Shown: positions 30,362-36,031 of the stretch, piece by piece
Position numbering within the stretch: the first letter of the stretch is position 1
Layout: each line of letters starts with the position of its first letter
Source of the DNA: a virus
Reading direction: 5' to 3' (one strand)
Virus record (IMG/VR): IMGVR_UViG_3300028832_000024
Length of the DNA: 45,708 bases
Translations under genes and position numbers: made by a program
Notes under the pieces: generated by a model
The model's input: only the letters and a program-made list of their open reading frames with translations
Database searches by the model: none
What the model was told of the DNA's origin: nothing

Positions 30362-30742
30362 TTATTTCCTTACAACCCCGCCCAATTTATCCGCCCATTT
30401 TTCAGTAAAAAACGAATAATAGGAACGCCCCCGCGACGGATTCCAATACCACGCCCACAATAGCGACGGAATGCCCACGACAAACAGGTATAAAGGCCCC
30501 AAATAAAGCGATTGGCGGGAATGGCCGTATTCGTGTCCCCAAGTGTCCGGATTCGACAAATACGGCCATTTTACGATAATTGTACGGCCCAACGAAATAC
30601 CGCCCTTAAATTTTCTATCAACAACGACGTTGACGCCACGGAACAGGATTGAACGTCCACGGTATATAACACGAAATGCAAGCCCGACAATATTTTGCGG
30701 GGCTTGCCATATCCAAAGCAATATTTCCCAAACTGTTTTCAT
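30362..30742 (-). CDS. Membrane protein with an HExxHxxQ zincin-like motif
   Basis: From ATG 30742 (ATGA overlap with the amidase stop): an N-terminal hydrophobic helix, WGHEYGHSRQS, then a second hydrophobic segment LYLGPLYLFVVGIPSLLWAWYW. Confidence 0.45.
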   Translation of the reverse strand: MKTVWEILLWIWQAPQNIVGLAFRVIYRGRSILFRGVNVVVDRKFKGGISLGRTIIVKWPYLSNPDTWGHEYGHSRQSLYLGPLYLFVVGIPSLLWAWYWNPSRGRSYYSFFTEKWADKLGGVVRK

Positions 30743-31227
30743 CGTTCCGCCGTGCAAATGGAAATCGGGAATTCGGCCTTTGCATCGAAACACGGGCAAA
30801 GTTTAATCCATTCGTTTTTTTCGATCGTCCCGTTTCCGTTCTTATCGGGGCTTGCGTCCCTGTGGCCGATAACTTCCTTAATCGGGTATTCGTCCATAAG
30901 ACGATAAACCAAGTCAACCAACGCTTTTTTTTGTTCGGGCGTCCGCGTGTCGGCGGGTTCCCCGTTTTCGTCAAGCCCGCCCACGTACACGATTCCGATT
31001 GAATGTTTGTTGTACGATTTCCCCGACAGGCCCGCAGTATTGCAATGCGCCCCGTCGCGGGAAAGAGGTCGGCCCGTTTCCACGGTCCCGTCCAAGTCAA
31101 CGACGTAGTTGTAGCCGATGCAAGCGAAACCGCGTTCTTTATGCATCTTGTCAATGTCGGAAGCCCGCAAGTCTTGGCCCGCGCGGGATGCCGTGCAATG
31201 GATTACGATAGCATCTATTGTTTTCAT
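30739..31227 (-). CDS. N-acetylmuramoyl-L-alanine amidase (Amidase_2 / PGRP-type endolysin)
   Basis: AIVIHCTA...DIDKMHKERGF..IGYNYVV...GAHC...HSIGIVYVGG...VIGHRD......CPCF is the typical T7-lysozyme-type motif order, including the Zn-ligand His/His/Cys positions. Confidence 0.85.
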   Translation of the reverse strand: MKTIDAIVIHCTASRAGQDLRASDIDKMHKERGFACIGYNYVVDLDGTVETGRPLSRDGAHCNTAGLSGKSYNKHSIGIVYVGGLDENGEPADTRTPEQKKALVDLVYRLMDEYPIKEVIGHRDASPDKNGNGTIEKNEWIKLCPCFDAKAEFPISICTAER

Positions 31228-31231
31228 AAAC

Positions 31232-32032
31232 TTATAAGTTTAAACCCAAATTAAAACGGATATTATCAACGGCGTGGTTCTGCAAGATTTCCGCTTCCGT
31301 TAAGGCCCTGTTATAAATACGGATTGAATAGATTTTCCCCATATAATAACTGCCGTTACTGCGCCGTCCTATATAGGTGGTTGCCGTTGAACGCCCGCTC
31401 ATATATGTATTGCCGTGCGCGGTCATTGCTTCCCCGTTTTGGATTGCGCGGTTAACATTGACGCTTGCGACGCCCTTCATTGGCAACGTGTCGTAGGTGG
31501 TTCGGTTCGTTCCGTTCGACCAATTCAGTACGCCGCCCACGCTACCGAACGCAAGCGCGTTTGCAGTTTTCGGCATATACAGAACACGCGTTCCACTTCC
31601 TTCCCTCTCAAAACAAATTTCGATCGTACCCGTGGAGTTTAACGGCGTGGTAAACGCCGTGTTGCTCAAATAATCGTCTGTCCCGTCGAAATATATGTGG
31701 TCCGCATTGAACGTTGCCCCGTTGTTGGTAAATAGAACGTTTCCGACGACGCTTTCCCACGACGTGTTCCCCGTTTTCCCCGTCTTTCCGTCCAAGTGAA
31801 GGACAAGCCCGTCTTGTACGTAATCCGAAAGATTCCCGCCGCTTCCCGCCGCTTGTTGGACCGTAAGGGTTTGCGACACGTTCCCCGCCGTGAAAGTTAC
31901 GACCTTCGAACGGGCCGCCCCCGTATTCGGATCGGAAGAAACCGCGATTTGCTGATTACCCGAAAAGTCGGGGGACGTTATATAAATTTTATCCCCCGAA
32001 CCGTCGGCCCATTCAATTTGTTGTGTCGGCAT
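31232..32032 (-). CDS. Protein with C-terminal half of a BACON domain at its N-terminus plus a LamG (concanavalin-like lectin) domain
   Basis: From ATG 32032: MPTQQIEWADGSGDKIYITSPDFSGNQQIAVSSDPNTGAARSKVVTFTAGNVSQTLTVQQ (second half of a BACON domain). The C-terminus ...YMGKIYSIRIYNRALTEAEI is the classic Laminin_G_3 ending. Confidence 0.65.
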   Translation of the reverse strand: MPTQQIEWADGSGDKIYITSPDFSGNQQIAVSSDPNTGAARSKVVTFTAGNVSQTLTVQQAAGSGGNLSDYVQDGLVLHLDGKTGKTGNTSWESVVGNVLFTNNGATFNADHIYFDGTDDYLSNTAFTTPLNSTGTIEICFEREGSGTRVLYMPKTANALAFGSVGGVLNWSNGTNRTTYDTLPMKGVASVNVNRAIQNGEAMTAHGNTYMSGRSTATTYIGRRSNGSYYMGKIYSIRIYNRALTEAEILQNHAVDNIRFNLGLNL

Positions 32033-32637
32033 TACGAAATCGTCCAATAAGTGTTGGAAGAAACGGTAACGTTAACGGCCGTTCCGTTCGCGTCCATATT
32101 AATCGTTGTCGGGGAAATGGTCAAGTACGCGTCGGCTTCCGCCTGTGTAATTTCGCAAACGGACGATACGTTGTTATTGGTCGTAACTGTCAGTTGGGAA
32201 ACCAACGACGCAACCGACGTGTTGGCGGGAATGTTCGTAAAGGTAATTTCGAATTCGTATTCCTGTATTGCGCCCGGATCGCCCGTAATGGCCGCGCCGT
32301 TTTGCGTGGAAACCGAATTCGCCAAATATGACGACGGCAAAACCAAACCGATTTCGTTTGTACCCGTAAGCGCAAACGTCAGTTTCGAAGAATTCGATCG
32401 GCCGTGTATCGTCAGCGTTCCGCCCGTTTTCGGGACCGCCGCCGTATCGTCAATAATTACGAATTCCGTCTTTCCCGCCTGTATGATCGTAAGGGTTTTG
32501 GATTCCACGCCCGACGCCGAAAACGTGGCCGTCGTTTGACGCGCGGTTCGTCCTGTGTGTTGTGTACCTGTCCATTGGACGGTATCATTTCCGTTTCCAC
32601 TTTGTTTGTTCGGGGAAACCCAACTTGCGTAAGGCAT
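32032..32637 (-). CDS. Protein that starts with a BACON C-terminal half and ends with a BACON N-terminal half
   Basis: N-terminus MPYASWVSPNKQSGNGNDTVQWTGTQHTGRTARQTTATFSASGVESKTLTIIQ. C-terminus YLTISPTTINMDANGTAVNVTVSSNTYWTIS followed by the stop. Confidence 0.6.
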   Translation of the reverse strand: MPYASWVSPNKQSGNGNDTVQWTGTQHTGRTARQTTATFSASGVESKTLTIIQAGKTEFVIIDDTAAVPKTGGTLTIHGRSNSSKLTFALTGTNEIGLVLPSSYLANSVSTQNGAAITGDPGAIQEYEFEITFTNIPANTSVASLVSQLTVTTNNNVSSVCEITQAEADAYLTISPTTINMDANGTAVNVTVSSNTYWTIS

Positions 32638-32649
32638 AATTTGAAAATT

Positions 32650-32946
32650 TTAATTGATTGTCCAATAAGTATTGCTAAATACGTCGTTTTGCGTTTGGCC
32701 CGCCAAAATCCAAACAACCGTAGGACTGATTTCAAGATACGGACCGCGTATATTCGGGGCGCAAGACTGAAACACACGGCAACGGATTCCGCCGATTCGC
32801 TTTGCCGTCGCATCAATCCCGCTGATCCGTTCGGCGTGGACTGCAATAGCGTTGCGGGGTTCGGCCTTTGTGCTGATCCCGCCCACGCGTTCGGCATTAC
32901 AGGCAATCCCGCCGATCCGTTTGCATTTTACGGTCAAACAACCCAT
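32650..32946 (-). CDS. Protein with five decapeptide repeats, ending in a BACON N-terminal half
   Basis: KRIGGIACNA ERVGGISTKA EPRNAIAVHA ERISGIDATA KRIGGIRCRV, then YLEISPTVVWILAGQTQNDVFSNTYWTIN and the stop. The TAA is in frame with the next ORF. Confidence 0.5.
   Translation of the reverse strand: MGCLTVKCKRIGGIACNAERVGGISTKAEPRNAIAVHAERISGIDATAKRIGGIRCRVFQSCAPNIRGPYLEISPTVVWILAGQTQNDVFSNTYWTIN
32773..32922 (-). repeat. Five tandem 30-nt coding repeats
   Basis: Minus strand aaacggatcggcgggattgcctgtaatgcc / gaacgcgtgggcgggatcagcacaaaggcc / gaaccccgcaacgctattgcagtccacgcc / gaacggatcagcgggattgatgcgacggca / aagcgaatcggcggaatccgttgccgtgtg. Confidence 0.8.
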
Positions 32947-32947
32947 A

Positions 32948-33283
32948 TTAAACAGGATTCAAAATTACTATATCGAATTTGTCTATTTCAAGACGGATAC
33001 CGCCTTGAAAGTCCGTATCGGGGACGAACGCTTTTACAATGCAATTGACGATCCCCGCGTGGAAGATCGAAGAATCGAAGCACAAATAATATTTATGCGT
33101 TTCGTTCCCGTTTTCCGTCGTGGTTTCTTCGATAAATTCGCTTTTCGGGATTTCCTTTTCGGTCGGTCCCTGTTTGAGAATGACCGAAAAATCGTCGTTG
33201 TGCATCGAAAAGCCGGGGGCCTCAATTTCGAACAGGAATTTAAGGCCCGATCCCTCAAAAGAATGCGCGATATTTTGTTTCAT
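32948..33283 (-). CDS. Hypothetical protein (111 aa), beta-rich
   Basis: ATG ORF directly downstream of the holin; no motif recognised. Confidence 0.5.
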   Translation of the reverse strand: MKQNIAHSFEGSGLKFLFEIEAPGFSMHNDDFSVILKQGPTEKEIPKSEFIEETTTENGNETHKYYLCFDSSIFHAGIVNCIVKAFVPDTDFQGGIRLEIDKFDIVILNPV

Positions 33284-33295
33284 ATCAATTGTGTT

Positions 33296-33766
33296 TTATT
33301 CTTTTTGTGCGTCGTCGAACGTCATTCCCAACTGATCTTCAACTTTGAATTTCATAAACTTGCGCAACCAACGGAATAAGGGGTGGTCGGAAATAACGGC
33401 CGCGTTTTCAAGAAACGACCAAAATTCAACGCCACAACAAAACGCCGTAAAGTAATTGGCGAACCTTAACCGCGATTCCATATTTTCGGCAAGCACTTGC
33501 GACAACATATCAGCAAGCACAATGCCGATTAGGATAAAGACGTATTTGTATATCGTGCGCCACGCCTTGATTGATTCGAAAGCGAACTTTTGCTTTGTCC
33601 GCTTTGCGACAACGGCGGATTTCAATACGCCCGTTATAAAATCAACCGCTTCGAATACAGTAACGGCAATGAATAGCGGCAACAAATCGTTGACCAACAG
33701 GCCCACGAATCCGGCAAAAAATCCCACTATCAGTTTGTCGGGGTAAAGTGTAAAAGTCCGTATCAT
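33296..33766 (-). CDS. Holin (Phage_holin_4-like, putative)
   Basis: Three to four hydrophobic helices, DFITGVLKSAV...KAWRTIYKY and VEFWSFLENAAV (the E..S..EN signature of that holin family). Confidence 0.6.
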   Translation of the reverse strand: MIRTFTLYPDKLIVGFFAGFVGLLVNDLLPLFIAVTVFEAVDFITGVLKSAVVAKRTKQKFAFESIKAWRTIYKYVFILIGIVLADMLSQVLAENMESRLRFANYFTAFCCGVEFWSFLENAAVISDHPLFRWLRKFMKFKVEDQLGMTFDDAQKE

Positions 33767-33778
33767 TTTTTTTCCTGT

Positions 33779-36031
33779 TTATTGTGCGATTTCGGGGAAA
33801 TCTACCAAATATCGGCCCGCGATTGCTTTTGCGCCGAACGTTGTAGGGTGTACGCCGTCGTCCAACATTCCCGAATACCACGTACCGTTATCGTCGGAAG
33901 AAACGGCGTCGTAAACGTCAACATAACGATAGCCCGAAGATTTCACATAATTATTTATTGACGCTTTCGAACCGTCGGTCGGCCACGGGATCGTTTGCAA
34001 AATTAATTCGATTCCAAGCGCACGGCAAAGCATTTCAACTTTAATTACTATATCTTTCCATTTCCAATAACTATCATTCATTCCCAACGCCCAAACCAAG
34101 AATTTCGGCGTACCATACAACAACGCGTTTTGCAACGCGGGGAACATATCTTCCGACGTTCCGCCCGCCAAACCAATTACCGTAAATTGGTCAATCCCAT
34201 AACCGTTTATAAGTTGATACGGCCAACGTTGCGCGTAAATTGATGTATAACTATCTCCGACAATCCAAACCGGTTTTCTCATACGGTCCGAAACAACACG
34301 CAACACGGAATTTGTAACAACTGCGCCATCCAATACTTCGACAAATGCGTAACCATATTGTTCCCGCAATTCATCATCCATCGAATAGTTGAATTGACCG
34401 TTGGACGAAACAATATTTACGGAAAATTTCTTGTATTGGATTGTAAATATAACCGTAATAAATGACGCAATTATAAGTCCGTGCGCTTGTTTAGAAATAG
34501 ACGTTGAATTTGTCCCCGTGCCAGTATATTTTCGAATGTCAATATACGTTGAATCCACACGCACAAAAAATCCAAGAGAACTTCCGCGCCCAACTCCAAT
34601 GTCAAACGTTCCCGCCGTTGTTATCTTTGCAGTAAACGAAACGATTCGGTTGCTTTTAAGATAATACGGGAAATTCGATATATTCATTCTATTACCGCCG
34701 GATTCGGACAAAGAAGAATCCAACGTTAACGCCGAAACACCCGCGCCATCTTGCCCAACGGAAGAAAAAGCCGGAATCAAAGATGGAACATTTTCTTTTG
34801 CGATTATTTGCGAACCGCTAAACGGCGTAATTATTTGTTCTTGATAAGTTGGCGCAAATGCACCAGTTATATTCAAATCTTCATAAAGAATGAATTTGTA
34901 TGTTGCGTTAACTGTTATCGTGAAACGAACAAACGCATCCCCATCAACATAACTGTATGTTGCGCCAGTCGAACGAATATATTGCTTGTTCGAATCATAA
35001 ACGGCGTGGCCACCAACTGAACCATAAGTTTTGTAATTGTATGACCTTACAATTTGACTAACCGGTATAAAATCAGTTGCACGATATTCCCCGGAAGAAA
35101 GAGAAACAAACGCACCCGTATTTTTGTTTATATAACCCATTTGGGCCTTACTACTATCGAATACGTTAAAGGAAACATATTTCGAAGATTGGCCCGATAT
35201 TTCTAATTCGATTGTCCCCGGTGCAATTTTATCGGATGTTATCGCACCATCCGCAATCATTCGTGTTTTAATGTATTGGTCTTGTATGCCAACCGATTTA
35301 ATAACAATGGATTCCGGGGTATAATAATAATCCCCAGTCGAATAACCGGAATTTACCGCCAAATACAACGCATCTTCCGGAGCAACCGCACGTTCCGTTT
35401 GATTAATCGCAACACCGATTGTTGACGAACCCACGCATAAATCAATATCTCCGCCCGATTGTGGCGCATCATTACTTTTAAGGAAACAAAAACGCGTACC
35501 GTATTCCGAATTTGCCGTAACCTCTACAACATCCCCCGGCTTTACTGGAATCCGACGATGATAATAATTCGTGTTCGTTCCATATTGCCCCGCTTCGGTA
35601 ATTTGATAATATCGTCTGTTATAATTTGATTTGATTTGCGCGGCGGTCAACGATAACGTTTCAACAAAAACACGGTTTAAATCGTCCACGTCTTTTGTTA
35701 AACGCGTAATGATTGCATCATAGTTTTTTCCAACGAAGATTGTCTGTAACGTCCACGAACCGTTATATTTCAATGCCCCCAAATGGCCATCCGGCACAAC
35801 GGAAGAATTGAAATTTGGATATGTACCGGCCCCGGCAATATAAAACACGTTTTGGTCGGGCGTTCCCGGGTTTGTGGCCGGTTCAGCAATGCCGACAAAT
35901 TGATAATCCGCGCCTAATGAATTAATCATTGCCAACAATGATTGTTGAAGCAATGCGCCGGTTATTTCATTGTTACCGTTGGTTTTTACAACGTCCGCTA
36001 TTGCGCCCTTTAATGTCGCGTAATTGCTCAT
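33779..36031 (-). CDS. Tail fibre / receptor-binding protein with C-terminal SGNH (GDSL) esterase domain
   Basis: The last 165 aa (33782..34276) carry SGNH blocks I IVGDSYT, II GLAGGT, III ALGMND and V DDGVHP. The N-terminal 580 aa are beta-rich and fibre-like. The gene lies at the end of the tail block. Confidence 0.75.
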   Translation of the reverse strand: MSNYATLKGAIADVVKTNGNNEITGALLQQSLLAMINSLGADYQFVGIAEPATNPGTPDQNVFYIAGAGTYPNFNSSVVPDGHLGALKYNGSWTLQTIFVGKNYDAIITRLTKDVDDLNRVFVETLSLTAAQIKSNYNRRYYQITEAGQYGTNTNYYHRRIPVKPGDVVEVTANSEYGTRFCFLKSNDAPQSGGDIDLCVGSSTIGVAINQTERAVAPEDALYLAVNSGYSTGDYYYTPESIVIKSVGIQDQYIKTRMIADGAITSDKIAPGTIELEISGQSSKYVSFNVFDSSKAQMGYINKNTGAFVSLSSGEYRATDFIPVSQIVRSYNYKTYGSVGGHAVYDSNKQYIRSTGATYSYVDGDAFVRFTITVNATYKFILYEDLNITGAFAPTYQEQIITPFSGSQIIAKENVPSLIPAFSSVGQDGAGVSALTLDSSLSESGGNRMNISNFPYYLKSNRIVSFTAKITTAGTFDIGVGRGSSLGFFVRVDSTYIDIRKYTGTGTNSTSISKQAHGLIIASFITVIFTIQYKKFSVNIVSSNGQFNYSMDDELREQYGYAFVEVLDGAVVTNSVLRVVSDRMRKPVWIVGDSYTSIYAQRWPYQLINGYGIDQFTVIGLAGGTSEDMFPALQNALLYGTPKFLVWALGMNDSYWKWKDIVIKVEMLCRALGIELILQTIPWPTDGSKASINNYVKSSGYRYVDVYDAVSSDDNGTWYSGMLDDGVHPTTFGAKAIAGRYLVDFPEIAQ

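What the first reader, a model, noticed from the sequence alone, without database searches (positions are those of the whole stretch)
32028..32047. A second BACON domain is cut at the same structural position, this time by a TAATG frame change
The 201-aa ORF ends ...YLTISPTTINMDANGTAVNVTVSSNTYWTIS, then TAA. Its stop overlaps the ATG of the next gene.

That gene begins MPTQQIEWADGSGDKIYITSPDFSGNQQIAVSSDPNTGAARSKVVTFTAGNVSQTLTVQQ, which is the missing second half of a BACON domain. It continues into a LamG lectin domain.

Both junctions follow the near-identical DNA AA(T/C)ACTTATTGGAC(A/G)AT, and both downstream genes start with Met-Pro. Two independent breaks at the same loop of two different BACON copies are unlikely to be random decay.

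This suggests a designed chain of three proteins (98, 201 and 266 aa) linked head to tail by split Ig-like domains. An alternative is termination-reinitiation or -1 recoding that produces fusion products. The conserved 17-mer could also be a recombination joint for swapping receptor-binding cassettes.
Basis: partly seen in the sequence, partly recalled or inferred. Interest (0 to 1): 0.75.

Follow-up and report, generated by a model that had tools for sequence, protein, structure and literature searches.

The report
Split BACON domain joins phage fibre proteins
Three neighbouring phage genes each stop or start in the middle of the same small sugar-binding (BACON) fold, a split conserved in hundreds of gut phages, so the half-folds probably snap together to chain an anchor, an extension piece and an exchangeable sticky tip.

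Summary
On the minus strand, ORF2 (201 aa, 32032..32637) ends ...SNTYWTIS-TAA, and its stop overlaps the ATG of ORF3 (266 aa, 31232..32032). ORF1 (98 aa) ends ...SNTYWTIN, 12 nt before ORF2.

- **One domain in two genes.** The end of ORF2 and the start of ORF3 are the two halves of one BACON Ig-like domain. Fused in silico they fold with pLDDT 88. The best PDB match is the BACON domain of BoGH5A (3ZMR). The ORF2 family profile maps its own end and start to residues 39 and 41 of that structure.
- **Not decay, an assembly error or recoding.** All 77 complete relatives among the 80 loci fetched keep the same start and stop, down to 45% identity. About 1,500 database proteins belong to the family. 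Junction spacers range from -1 to 53 nt and fall in all three frames. One crAss-like phage has an unrelated gene inside the junction.
- **Fused relatives exist.** They occur in the order ORF1-ORF2 and ORF2-ORF3. Multi-module relatives (410-1304 aa) still begin with a C-half and end with an N-half.
- **Best reading.** The three are separate, translationally coupled subunits joined head to tail by BACON halves complementing in trans. ORF3 carries swappable tips.
- **The 17-mer.** It reflects the conserved peptide and is not a recombination site.

Physical complementation is inferred, not shown.

The parts
32650..32946 (-). ORF1, 98 aa. Proposed anchor subunit: N-terminal ~11-residue 'RIGGI' repeats, then a BACON N-half at the C-terminus (residues ~69-98, nt 32653-32742), ending SNTYWTIN-TAA.
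   Evidence: The family (P0282-P0295, P0325-7, P0373) is 91-101 aa throughout. An upstream ORF ending in W plus 3 residues was found in 78 of 84 loci.
32638..32652 (-). Junction 1: TAA stop of ORF1 (32650-32652) plus an A/T-rich 12-nt spacer before the ORF2 ATG. In frame in this window.
   Evidence: Relatives show 53 distinct junction variants with spacers of 5-38 nt. Only 26 are in frame, and 10 of those hold further in-frame stops.
32470..32637 (-). ORF2 residues 1-56: BACON C-half (MPYASWVSPNKQSGNGN...TLTIIQAGK).
   Evidence: Profile positions 3-54 align to residues 41-92 of the solved BACON domain in 3ZMR. BACON_2 hit on the chimera.
32158..32469 (-). ORF2 residues 57-160: middle beta-rich module with conserved GxSNSSKLTF and GDPGA motifs.
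   Evidence: pLDDT 80-93 in the concatenated model. Conserved across the family.
32035..32157 (-). ORF2 residues 161-201: BACON N-half (CEITQAEADAYLTISPTTINMDANGTAVNVTVSSNTYWTIS).
   Evidence: Profile positions 179-200 align to 3ZMR residues 18-39. This stretch forms the first 41 residues of the pLDDT-88 fused model.
32030..32034 (-). Junction 2: TAATG. The ORF2 stop overlaps the ORF3 start by one base, so ORF3 is in the -1 frame. This is a translational-coupling arrangement.
   Evidence: The same overlap occurs in 43 of 71 relatives; the rest have spacers of 1-53 nt.
31844..32032 (-). ORF3 residues 1-63: conserved W-x-D-G-x-G-D extension plus the BACON C-half. Proposed constant 'plug' that docks the tip.
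   Evidence: Pfam BACON positions 17-61 of 61. Near-identical in 77 proteins that carry different C-terminal domains. DNA homology with relatives ends at about 31837-31873.
31271..31753 (-). ORF3 residues ~94-254: concanavalin-A-like lectin (Laminin_G_3) domain. Proposed exchangeable distal tip.
   Evidence: Pfam 28.1 bits against a cut-off of 27.6. Replaced by LRR_5 and several other domains in close relatives.
32039..32055 (-). 17-mer copy 2 (AACACTTATTGGACGAT), encoding N-T-Y-W-T-I of the ORF2 N-half.
   Evidence: Third codon positions vary in relatives.
32657..32673 (-). 17-mer copy 1 (AATACTTATTGGACAAT), encoding N-T-Y-W-T-I of the ORF1 N-half.
32948..33283 (-). ORF0, 111 aa. Conserved gene immediately upstream of ORF1 in relatives; role unknown.
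   Evidence: Homologues precede ORF1 in L001, L003 and L004/L006. No Pfam, PHROG or NCBIfam hit.

Best explanation
ORF1, ORF2 and ORF3 are three separate polypeptides translated from one operon. The TAATG overlap and the short A-rich spacer couple their translation.

Each gene boundary lies in the same surface loop of a BACON Ig-like beta-sandwich. That loop sits between the strand ...S-N-T-x-W-x-x-x and the strand x-x-W-(L/V)-x-P. The upstream protein therefore ends with the first strands of the domain (the N-half), and the downstream protein begins with the remaining strands (the C-half).

The proposal is that each N-half and the following C-half fold together in trans into one complete BACON domain. 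This would join the subunits non-covalently in gene order:
- ORF1, the anchor, with N-terminal repeats;
- ORF2, an extension module made of C-half, middle domain and N-half;
- ORF3, with a C-half 'plug' and a distal lectin tip.

Because the plug is constant, recombination just downstream of it swaps tips without disturbing assembly.

Shown here: separate genes, conservation of the split, complementarity of the halves, fused relatives in the same order, and tip swapping. Inferred: association in trans, stoichiometry, and attachment of ORF1 to the virion as a fibre or adhesin.
For: 1. Conservation. A scan of IMG/VR with the ORF2 family found 259 relatives. All 80 fetched loci have ATG at the same residue, and all 77 complete ones stop right after S-N-T-x-W-x-x-x, down to 45% identity. 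ORF1-type and ORF3-type neighbours are present in 78 and at least 71 of 84 loci.
2. Family size. 1,501 proteins match at E<=1e-5, and the top 120 are all 201-202 aa. Among 50%-identity representatives there are 745 hits, mostly about 200 aa matched end to end.
3. Separate translation. Junction 2 is TAATG in 43 of 71 loci and otherwise has spacers of 1-53 nt. Junction 1 spacers are 5-38 nt. All three frames occur. L006 has a second in-frame stop. L027 has a hairpin in its spacer. In the crAss-like locus L088 an unrelated 78-aa gene sits between the N-half donor and the ORF2-like protein.
4. The halves make one domain.
   - The Pfam BACON_2 model is matched over positions 2-93 of 94 by the chimera.
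   - The ORF2 family profile maps its C-terminus to 3ZMR residues 18-39 and its N-terminus to residues 41-92.
   - The AlphaFold2 model of ORF2(161-201)+ORF3(1-66) has pLDDT 88 and pTM 0.78.
   - Its best PDB match is the BACON domain of 3ZMR (TM 0.63, rmsd 2.8 over 99 columns). Its best viral matches are BACON-domain phage proteins (TM 0.64-0.75).
5. Rosetta-stone fusions, collinear with gene order.
   - P0159, P0206, P0215 and P0250 are ORF2 fused to an ORF3-type C-half.
   - P0238 is an ORF1-like protein fused to ORF2.
   - P0193, P0277 and P0227 are large tail-fibre-like proteins fused to BACON plus the middle module.
   - Pfam BACON spans the former boundary in P0001 (28.6 bits) and P0193 (26.7 bits).
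6. Phase is kept whatever the length. Relatives of 410, 685, 845 and 1304 aa still begin with a C-half and end with an N-half.
7. Tip swapping. 77 ORF3-like proteins share an almost identical 63-aa N-terminus followed by at least 7 unrelated C-terminal domains. DNA homology with L001, L009 and L010 stops 160-196 nt into ORF3 and resumes at the amidase gene.
Against: - No multimer prediction or experiment was possible, so complementation in trans is untested. The high-confidence model is of an artificial fusion.
- ORF2 carries both halves, so it could close on itself or pair with other ORF2 copies.
- In a few loci ORF2 has no ORF3-type neighbour (L029-31, L041, L063) or no ORF1-type neighbour (L020, L022).
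- Covariation between the two ORF2 halves was uninformative.
- The concatenated three-protein model was poor outside ORF2 (pLDDT 52).
- The ORF1+ORF2 chimera scores only 11 bits against BACON_2.
- Virion location is inferred only from the position next to tail-fibre genes and from fused relatives.
Confidence: 0.7

Rival explanations
1. Self-complementation. ORF2's N-terminal C-half and C-terminal N-half pair with each other. This could happen within one chain (a circularly permuted BACON with the middle module as an insertion), in a reciprocal dimer, or in a head-to-tail homopolymer. ORF1 and ORF3 would then pair with each other, cap the polymer, or stay unpaired.
For: - ORF2 has both halves.
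- An ORF2-type N-half and an ORF2-type C-half form an intact domain in P0001-3 and in the chimera.
- Some loci lack an ORF3 or ORF1 neighbour.
- A few top covarying pairs link C-half core residues (W22, L49) to the first strand of the N-half (I174, T177).
Against: - In natural fusions the ORF2 N-half is followed by an ORF3-type C-half, and an ORF1-type N-half by the ORF2 C-half.
- Rod-like relatives of 685-1304 aa keep half-domains at both ends. Ring closure there is implausible.
- The synteny ORF1-ORF2-ORF3 is nearly universal.
- Pairs between the C-half and the N-half are not enriched overall: 6 of the top 60 against a 12% background. The few seen follow the split into two major clades.
Confidence: 0.15
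2. Recoding. Stop-codon readthrough at junction 1 and a -1 frameshift or termination-reinitiation at junction 2 produce fused polypeptides with intact BACON domains.
For: - In this window ORF1 and ORF2 are in frame, separated by one TAA and four sense codons.
- ORF3 is in the -1 frame.
- 58 of 71 junction-2 spacers are congruent to 2 mod 3.
Against: - There is no X-XXY-YYZ slippery site. The codons before the stop vary synonymously.
- Junction 1 falls in all three frames. 10 of the 26 in-frame variants carry extra in-frame stops.
- Junction-2 spacers reach 53 nt, one with a hairpin.
- An unrelated gene is inserted in L088.
- The stop is almost always TAA. TAA is generally held to be the least leaky stop codon (my own background knowledge, not checked here).
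- The frame bias at junction 2 is mostly the common TAATG overlap inherited by related phages.
Confidence: 0.03
3. The halves do not pair. Each is an autonomous short beta-element, for example a C-terminal cap and an N-terminal docking peptide that bind other virion proteins. The resemblance to the two halves of BACON would reflect descent from an ancestral tandem array without present function.
For: Nothing direct. It cannot be excluded without structures. The short ORF3 variants (80-124 aa) are little more than a C-half plus a short tail.
Against: - Core residues of both halves are strongly conserved over hundreds of sequences.
- An isolated 3-4 strand half of a beta-sandwich would expose its hydrophobic core.
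- The fused model is confident and compact.
- Fusions keep recreating the intact domain.
Confidence: 0.1
4. Artefact or decay: an assembly indel or a recent pseudogenisation of one long multi-BACON gene.
For: Partial Pfam domains are usually annotation artefacts (PMC4443539, abstract as listed).
Against: The same boundaries occur in 77 of 77 complete relatives from many samples and assemblers, with intact ATG starts and diverged spacers. L008 is an independent, near-identical contig.
Confidence: 0.01

Closest known systems
BACON domain (Pfam PF13004 / PF19190). Solved example: the N-terminal domain of Bacteroides ovatus GH5 xyloglucanase, PDB 3ZMR. Also the BACON tandem repeats of crAssphage (PMC6949934).
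   Same: Same fold and sequence family. The HMMs are matched. The fused model superposes on 3ZMR and on viral BACON proteins. It occurs in Bacteroidota phages next to tail genes, as described for crAss-like phages (PMC6949934).
   Different: Known BACON domains are contiguous in one polypeptide. Here the domain is encoded in two pieces on consecutive genes, at a fixed loop (3ZMR residues 39/41). Searches of PMC6949934, PMC13370021 and PMC10172136 for the relevant terms ('split', 'partial', 'stop codon', 'complementation' and the like) turned up no such split.
Donor-strand complementation/exchange in chaperone-usher pili and in the type V pili of Bacteroidia (my own background knowledge).
   Same: The proposed logic is the same. 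Subunits have an incomplete Ig-like fold that is completed by a segment of the neighbouring subunit, giving an ordered, non-covalent fibre with a tip adhesin. Chaperone-usher components appear among the weaker fold matches.
   Different: There is no sequence relationship, and no chaperone, usher or protease was identified. About half a domain (3-4 strands) is supplied rather than one strand. The subunits are phage-encoded and heterotypic. Complementation itself has not been demonstrated here.
Modular phage receptor-binding proteins with a conserved N-terminal docking module and exchangeable C-terminal domains. This includes branched or end-to-end fibres such as T4 gp34-37, the T5-like LtfA/LtfB fibre (PMC4728585) and the CBA120 or G7C tailspikes (the last from my own knowledge).
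   Same: ORF3-like proteins keep a near-identical 63-aa N-terminus and carry at least 7 unrelated distal domains. Recombination breakpoints flank the distal domain.
   Different: The docking module is not an autonomous domain. It is half of a fold whose other half sits on the preceding protein.
'Split domains' of RTX adhesins, where a beta-sandwich extender is interrupted by an inserted ligand-binding domain. I saw the term only in the search listing for bioRxiv 10.1101/2025.09.30.679566; the paper was not read, and this definition rests on my own knowledge.
   Same: A beta-sandwich whose two parts are separated in sequence. It is relevant to the self-closure rival for ORF2. The low-confidence concatenated model resembles tandem extender arrays such as 6XI1.
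   Different: RTX split domains lie within one polypeptide. Here the two parts are on different gene products.
Translational coupling through overlapping stop/start codons (TAATG, ATGA), common in phage operons (established knowledge).
   Same: Junction 2 is TAATG in the window and in 43 of 71 relatives.
   Different: Coupling explains co-expression only. It does not explain why the boundary sits inside a domain.

Membership tests
BACON domain (PF13004 / PF19190) | Sequence match to the family HMM at or above the gathering score | tested here: met
   ORF3 alone scores 25.5 bits against a cut-off of 25, covering profile positions 17-61 only. The ORF2+ORF3 join scores 34.2 bits. The ORF2 C-terminus+N-terminus chimera scores 26.5 bits (BACON, 2-61 of 61) and 25.0 bits (BACON_2, 2-93 of 94).
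BACON domain (PF13004 / PF19190) | Ig-like beta-sandwich fold superposable on a solved BACON domain | tested here: met
   The fused 107-aa model has pLDDT 88. Its top PDB hit is 3ZMR_A, with TM 0.63 and rmsd 2.8 A over 99 columns. Viral BACON proteins match at TM 0.64-0.75.
BACON domain (PF13004 / PF19190) | The domain is contiguous within one polypeptide | tested here: not met
   A stop and a start codon lie between profile-equivalent 3ZMR residues 39 and 41, at both junctions. This is conserved in relatives.
Laminin_G_3 / concanavalin-A-like lectin (PF13385) | HMM match above the gathering score in the ORF3 C-terminal part | tested here: met
   28.1 bits against a cut-off of 27.6, residues 123-249.
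Programmed -1 ribosomal frameshifting | Slippery heptamer X-XXY-YYZ upstream of the 0-frame stop, with a conserved frame relation and spacing | tested here: not met
   The sequence before the stop is ...TGG ACG ATT TCG TAA, with no slippery heptamer. These codons vary synonymously in relatives, and spacers run from -1 to 53 nt in all frames.
Stop-codon readthrough / reassigned stop codon | The downstream ORF is in frame, with no further stops, and this is conserved among relatives | tested here: not met
   Junction 1 is in frame in the window. Only 26 of 53 distinct variants are in frame, and 10 of those carry extra in-frame stops. The stop is TAA in 47 of 53 variants.
Donor-strand-complemented fibres (chaperone-usher or type V pili) | An incomplete Ig-like subunit fold completed by a segment of the next subunit | not testable with these tools
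   Complementarity of the halves is shown.
Donor-strand-complemented fibres (chaperone-usher or type V pili) | Homology to pilins, and presence of a chaperone/usher or a maturation protease | tested here: not met
   ORF0-ORF3 have no pilin, chaperone or usher hits in Pfam, PHROGs or NCBIfam. The neighbours are tail-fibre, holin and amidase genes.
Modular phage receptor-binding proteins (constant N-terminal adaptor, variable tip) | A conserved N-terminal module shared by proteins with unrelated C-terminal domains, with recombination breakpoints at the module boundary | tested here: met
   77 ORF3-like proteins fit this pattern. P0004 is 88% identical over the first ~61 aa and then carries LRR_5. 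DNA homology breaks at window positions ~31837-31873 and resumes at the amidase gene.

The most novel reading that the evidence does not exclude
Gut Bacteroidota phages (siphovirus-like, crAss-like and others) may build surface fibres or adhesins by a previously undescribed plug-and-socket principle. A BACON Ig-like domain is deliberately split at gene boundaries, and the halves reassemble between subunits. This would work as a chaperone-free analogue of donor-strand exchange. ORF2-type modules (1 to about 6 units) would set fibre length, and any tip carrying the C-half plug could be installed by recombination.
Probability: 0.5. Interest if true: 0.85.

Novelty: new variant of a known kind. 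Interest (0 to 1): 0.72.

Why it matters
If the halves do assemble in trans, this is a new way of building modular phage fibres. A single small fold split between genes would serve as the joint.

- It would explain how abundant gut phages exchange adhesin or receptor-binding tips so freely.
- It would assign a role to a family of at least ~1,500 unannotated ~200-aa proteins.
- It would provide a natural, orthogonal split-domain connector for engineering phage host range, mucus adherence or protein scaffolds.
- BACON-bearing phage proteins have been reported to mediate epithelial and mucosal adherence (PMC13370021), so the system bears on phage persistence in the gut.
- It is a clear counter-example to the rule that partial domains at gene ends are annotation artefacts (PMC4443539).

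Tried and rejected
- **blastn against GenBank phages.** The 2-kb region found no match.
- **Family libraries.** PHROGs, NCBIfam and Pfam gave nothing for ORF0, ORF1 or ORF2.
- **Concatenated protein search.** A search with ORF1+ORF2+ORF3 joined returned only 11 hits, because candidate selection was swamped. Separate searches worked.
- **AlphaFold2 of the full concatenation.** The model was poor outside ORF2 (pLDDT 52). Its fold matches (tandem Ig/cadherin-like stalks) count only as weak support.
- **Paired or pseudo-paired alignments for structure prediction.** The tool turned them away.
- **MAFFT block alignments.** MAFFT repeatedly aligned ORF1 tails and ORF3 heads onto the homologous halves of ORF2. 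This spoiled those alignments, though it does illustrate the homology of the halves.
- **No structure test of junction 1.** Self-closure therefore remains untested.
- **Covariation.** MI-APC on 289 ORF2 sequences (Neff 123) did not discriminate cis from trans pairing.
- **Literature.** Searches for a split BACON or for fold complementation in phage fibres found no precedent. Subscription-only papers were not covered.
- **Readings rejected.** Recoding, assembly error, and the 17-mer as a DNA recombination site.
Full report
**What is there.** The genes are on the minus strand. ORF1 (32650..32946, 98 aa) ends ...QNDVFSNTYWTIN-TAA. Twelve A/T-rich bases follow, then ORF2 (32032..32637, 201 aa), which starts MPYASWVSPNKQSGNGN... 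and ends ...VNVTVSSNTYWTIS-TAA. The last A of that stop is the first base of the ATG of ORF3 (31232..32032, 266 aa, MPTQQIEWADGSGDKIY...). In the window ORF1 and ORF2 are in frame. ORF3 is in the -1 frame relative to ORF2. The 17-mer AAYACTTATTGGACRAT occurs exactly twice, just before each stop, where 0.02 matches are expected by chance. Upstream lie tail genes: a 1204-aa ORF, an 815-aa ORF, a 288-aa fibre-like ORF and a 750-aa protein with a GDSL/SGNH esterase domain. A holin and a conserved 111-aa ORF0 follow. Four bases after ORF3 comes an amidase endolysin.

**The halves belong to one BACON domain.**
- ORF3 residues 23-61 match Pfam BACON positions 17-61 of 61, and its C-terminal part matches Laminin_G_3.
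- Joining the ORF2 C-terminus to the ORF3 N-terminus raises the BACON score from 25.5 to 34.2 bits. Joining the ORF2 C-terminus to the ORF2 N-terminus matches the viral BACON_2 model over positions 2-93 of 94.
- A profile of the ORF2 family, searched against PDB sequences, aligns its last 22 positions to residues 18-39 of the BACON domain of B. ovatus GH5 (3ZMR) and its first 52 positions to residues 41-92. The gene boundary therefore corresponds to two essentially adjacent residues in a loop of a solved structure.
- An AlphaFold2 model of ORF2(161-201)+ORF3(1-66) is a compact eight-strand sandwich with mean pLDDT 88 and pTM 0.78.
- Its best PDB match is 3ZMR (TM 0.63, rmsd 2.8 A, 99 of 107 columns). 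Its best viral matches are annotated BACON proteins of gut phages (TM 0.64-0.75).

**The split is an old, conserved feature.**
- Protein search with ORF2 returned 1,501 proteins at E<=1e-5. The 120 best are all 201-202 aa, unnamed or 'hypothetical protein' of Bacteroidales MAGs.
- Against 50%-identity representatives there are 745 hits (330 at E<=1e-10). Most are about 200 aa and match end to end.
- A scan of IMG/VR found 259 relatives. In all 80 fetched loci the match begins at an ATG, preceded in most by a nearby in-frame stop. In all 77 complete loci it ends with a stop right after S-N-T-x-W-[TS]-[IV]-x. This holds down to 45% identity.
- An upstream ORF ending in the same motif is present in 78 of 84 loci. 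A downstream ORF beginning with a W-x-D/N-G-x-G plus C-half sequence is present in at least 71.
- More distant human-gut phages have the same three-gene chain with F in place of W (...TNTTFTVS*). Some of these have two ORF3-like genes in tandem.
- A crAss-like contig also has the chain. A 192-aa protein ends ...VNTNIDWNVK*. An unrelated 78-aa gene follows, then a two-module ORF2 homologue, then a 307-aa protein that begins with a C-half.

**Recoding and artefact are excluded.**
- Junction 2 is TAATG in 43 of 71 loci. Elsewhere the spacer is 1-53 nt, and one spacer contains a hairpin.
- Junction 1 has 53 distinct variants with spacers of 5-38 nt. Twenty-six are in frame, and ten of those contain further in-frame stops.
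- No slippery heptamer precedes the stop. The stop is TAA in 47 of the 53 junction-1 variants.
- Within the last eight ORF2 codons, third positions are highly variable (up to 1.9 bits). The first two positions of S, N, T and W are essentially invariant. Selection therefore acts on the peptide, not on the 17-mer as DNA.
- An independent contig that is 99.6% identical carries the same junctions (L008).

**Evidence that the pieces work as a chain in gene order.** Natural fusions exist and are collinear with the gene order.
- P0001-3 and P0134 are two ORF2 modules with an intact BACON between them. Pfam BACON scores 28.6 bits across the former boundary.
- P0159, P0206, P0215 and P0250 are ORF2 followed directly by an ORF3-type C-half.
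- P0238 is an ORF1-like protein fused to ORF2.
- P0193, P0277 and P0227 are large fibre-like proteins that run into BACON plus the middle module. BACON scores 26.7 bits across the boundary in P0193.
- Relatives with several modules (410, 685, 845 and 1304 aa) still start with a C-half and end with an N-half. The phase of the cut is kept whatever the length.
- Giant bacterial proteins contain many tandem copies of the module (up to 20 matched stretches), which suggests the ancestral contiguous form. Some have signal-peptide-like N-termini, and their C-terminal tails look like T9SS sorting domains by eye; that was not tested.

By the Rosetta-stone argument, the separate proteins should interact as ORF1:ORF2 and ORF2:ORF3.

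**Tip exchange.** Seventy-seven ORF3-like proteins share an almost identical 63-residue N-terminus. After ...TLTVxQAAG they continue into at least seven unrelated C-terminal domains, including LamG and LRR_5. At the DNA level, homology between the window and L001, L009 and L010 runs from the holin through ORF0, ORF1 and ORF2 and 160-196 nt into ORF3 (window ~31837-31873). It stops there and resumes at the amidase start. The swap joint is therefore the end of the BACON C-half, not the 17-mer.

**Most likely mechanism.** The three proteins are made separately and in coupled amounts. Each N-half pairs with the next protein's C-half to rebuild a BACON sandwich, giving anchor (ORF1), extension (ORF2) and lectin tip (ORF3). 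I put 0.7 on this. What is shown: separate genes, the conserved cut, complementarity of the halves, fusion order and tip swapping. What is inferred: folding in trans, stoichiometry and virion location.

**Rivals.** The main rival (0.15) is that ORF2 complements itself, in cis, as a reciprocal dimer or as a polymer. It is supported by ORF2 having both halves and by a few loci that lack ORF3 or ORF1 next to ORF2. A covariation test could not separate the models. Neither single-chain modelling of ORF2 nor any multimer modelling could be run.

**Comparison with what is known.**
- The fold is an ordinary BACON domain. The split across genes is not a described feature. PMC6949934, PMC13370021 and PMC10172136 were checked for the relevant terms and yielded no such split, and full-text searches found no precedent.
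- In function, the system resembles donor-strand complementation in pili and the constant-adaptor/variable-tip logic of phage receptor-binding proteins.
- It is not a member of the pilus families. There is no homology, chaperone or usher, and half a domain is contributed rather than one strand.
- I class it as a new variant of a known kind, with interest 0.72.

Noticed in passing
window 32743-32946 (-), N-terminal two-thirds of ORF1: ORF1 starts with about five tandem ~11-residue repeats (KRIGGIACNAE / RVGGISTKAEP / ...ERISGIDATAK / RIGGIRCRV). Similar R-[IV]-G-G-[IM] repeats occur in relatives (L001, L006, L063, P0282-P0327). They may form a beta-helical or trimeric anchor. No family hit.
   Followed up: partly
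window 30739-33766 (-): The ORF0-ORF3 cluster sits between a holin-like gene (33296-33766) and an amidase endolysin (30739-31227), so the lysis cassette is interrupted by putative structural or adhesin genes. In L004 the cluster lies elsewhere relative to the holin and amidase.
   Followed up: partly
window 33779-36031 (-): A 750-aa fibre-like protein has a C-terminal GDSL/SGNH esterase domain (Pfam Lipase_GDSL_2, 36 bits). It may be a receptor-deacetylating tail fibre.
   Followed up: no
P0293-P0375; window 31232-31843 (-): At least seven unrelated tip domains follow a virtually identical 63-aa N-terminus in closely related phages. Recurrent C-terminal endings include ...FYGATLTIKY...DNIRFNLGL...KFYGN.AG.GSL and ...WSSY..RIKELN.DGTVP. 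This is a rich natural library of exchangeable tips.
   Followed up: partly
L012, L013, L015, L018, L023, L025, L034, L061, L078: Many relatives have short ORF3 proteins (80-124 aa): a C-half plus a short tail with tandem peptide repeats (e.g. NFRLSDGKYLRLSDGKYLNV; GKDITIITRNDTAITRNDVA). They are followed by fibre genes that start M-A-V-T-Y-K-D-I-x-x-L-[ST]-Q-K...E-K-[IL]-x-V-S-D-T-Q. This could be a further docking step.
   Followed up: no
L112 1932-2538; L140 2658-3270: Two ORF3-like genes in tandem, both starting with the W-x-D-G motif and a C-half. These genomes therefore encode more C-halves than N-halves, which suggests alternative tips competing for one socket.
   Followed up: no
P0162, P0191, P0214, P0216, P0246, P0255, P0258, P0259, P0261, P0270, P0271: Giant proteins (1,300-3,200 aa) contain up to 20 matched stretches of the ORF2 module as contiguous arrays. 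Many have signal-peptide-like N-termini and C-terminal tails that look like T9SS sorting domains (judged by eye, not tested). They may be the cellular source or sink of the module.
   Followed up: no
L029-L031, L041, L063, L020, L022: These are exceptions to the three-gene synteny: ORF2 without an adjacent ORF3-type or ORF1-type gene. In L020 an ORF0 homologue lies downstream of ORF3. Partners may be encoded elsewhere, or ORF2 may act alone there.
   Followed up: partly
ORF3 residues 1-14, window 31991-32032 (-): ORF3-type C-halves carry an extra conserved N-terminal segment (x-I-x-W-x-D/N-G-x-G-D/N) that ORF2-type C-halves lack. In the fused model it forms a short extra strand (residues 46-48, pLDDT about 80). 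It may confer partner specificity.
   Followed up: partly
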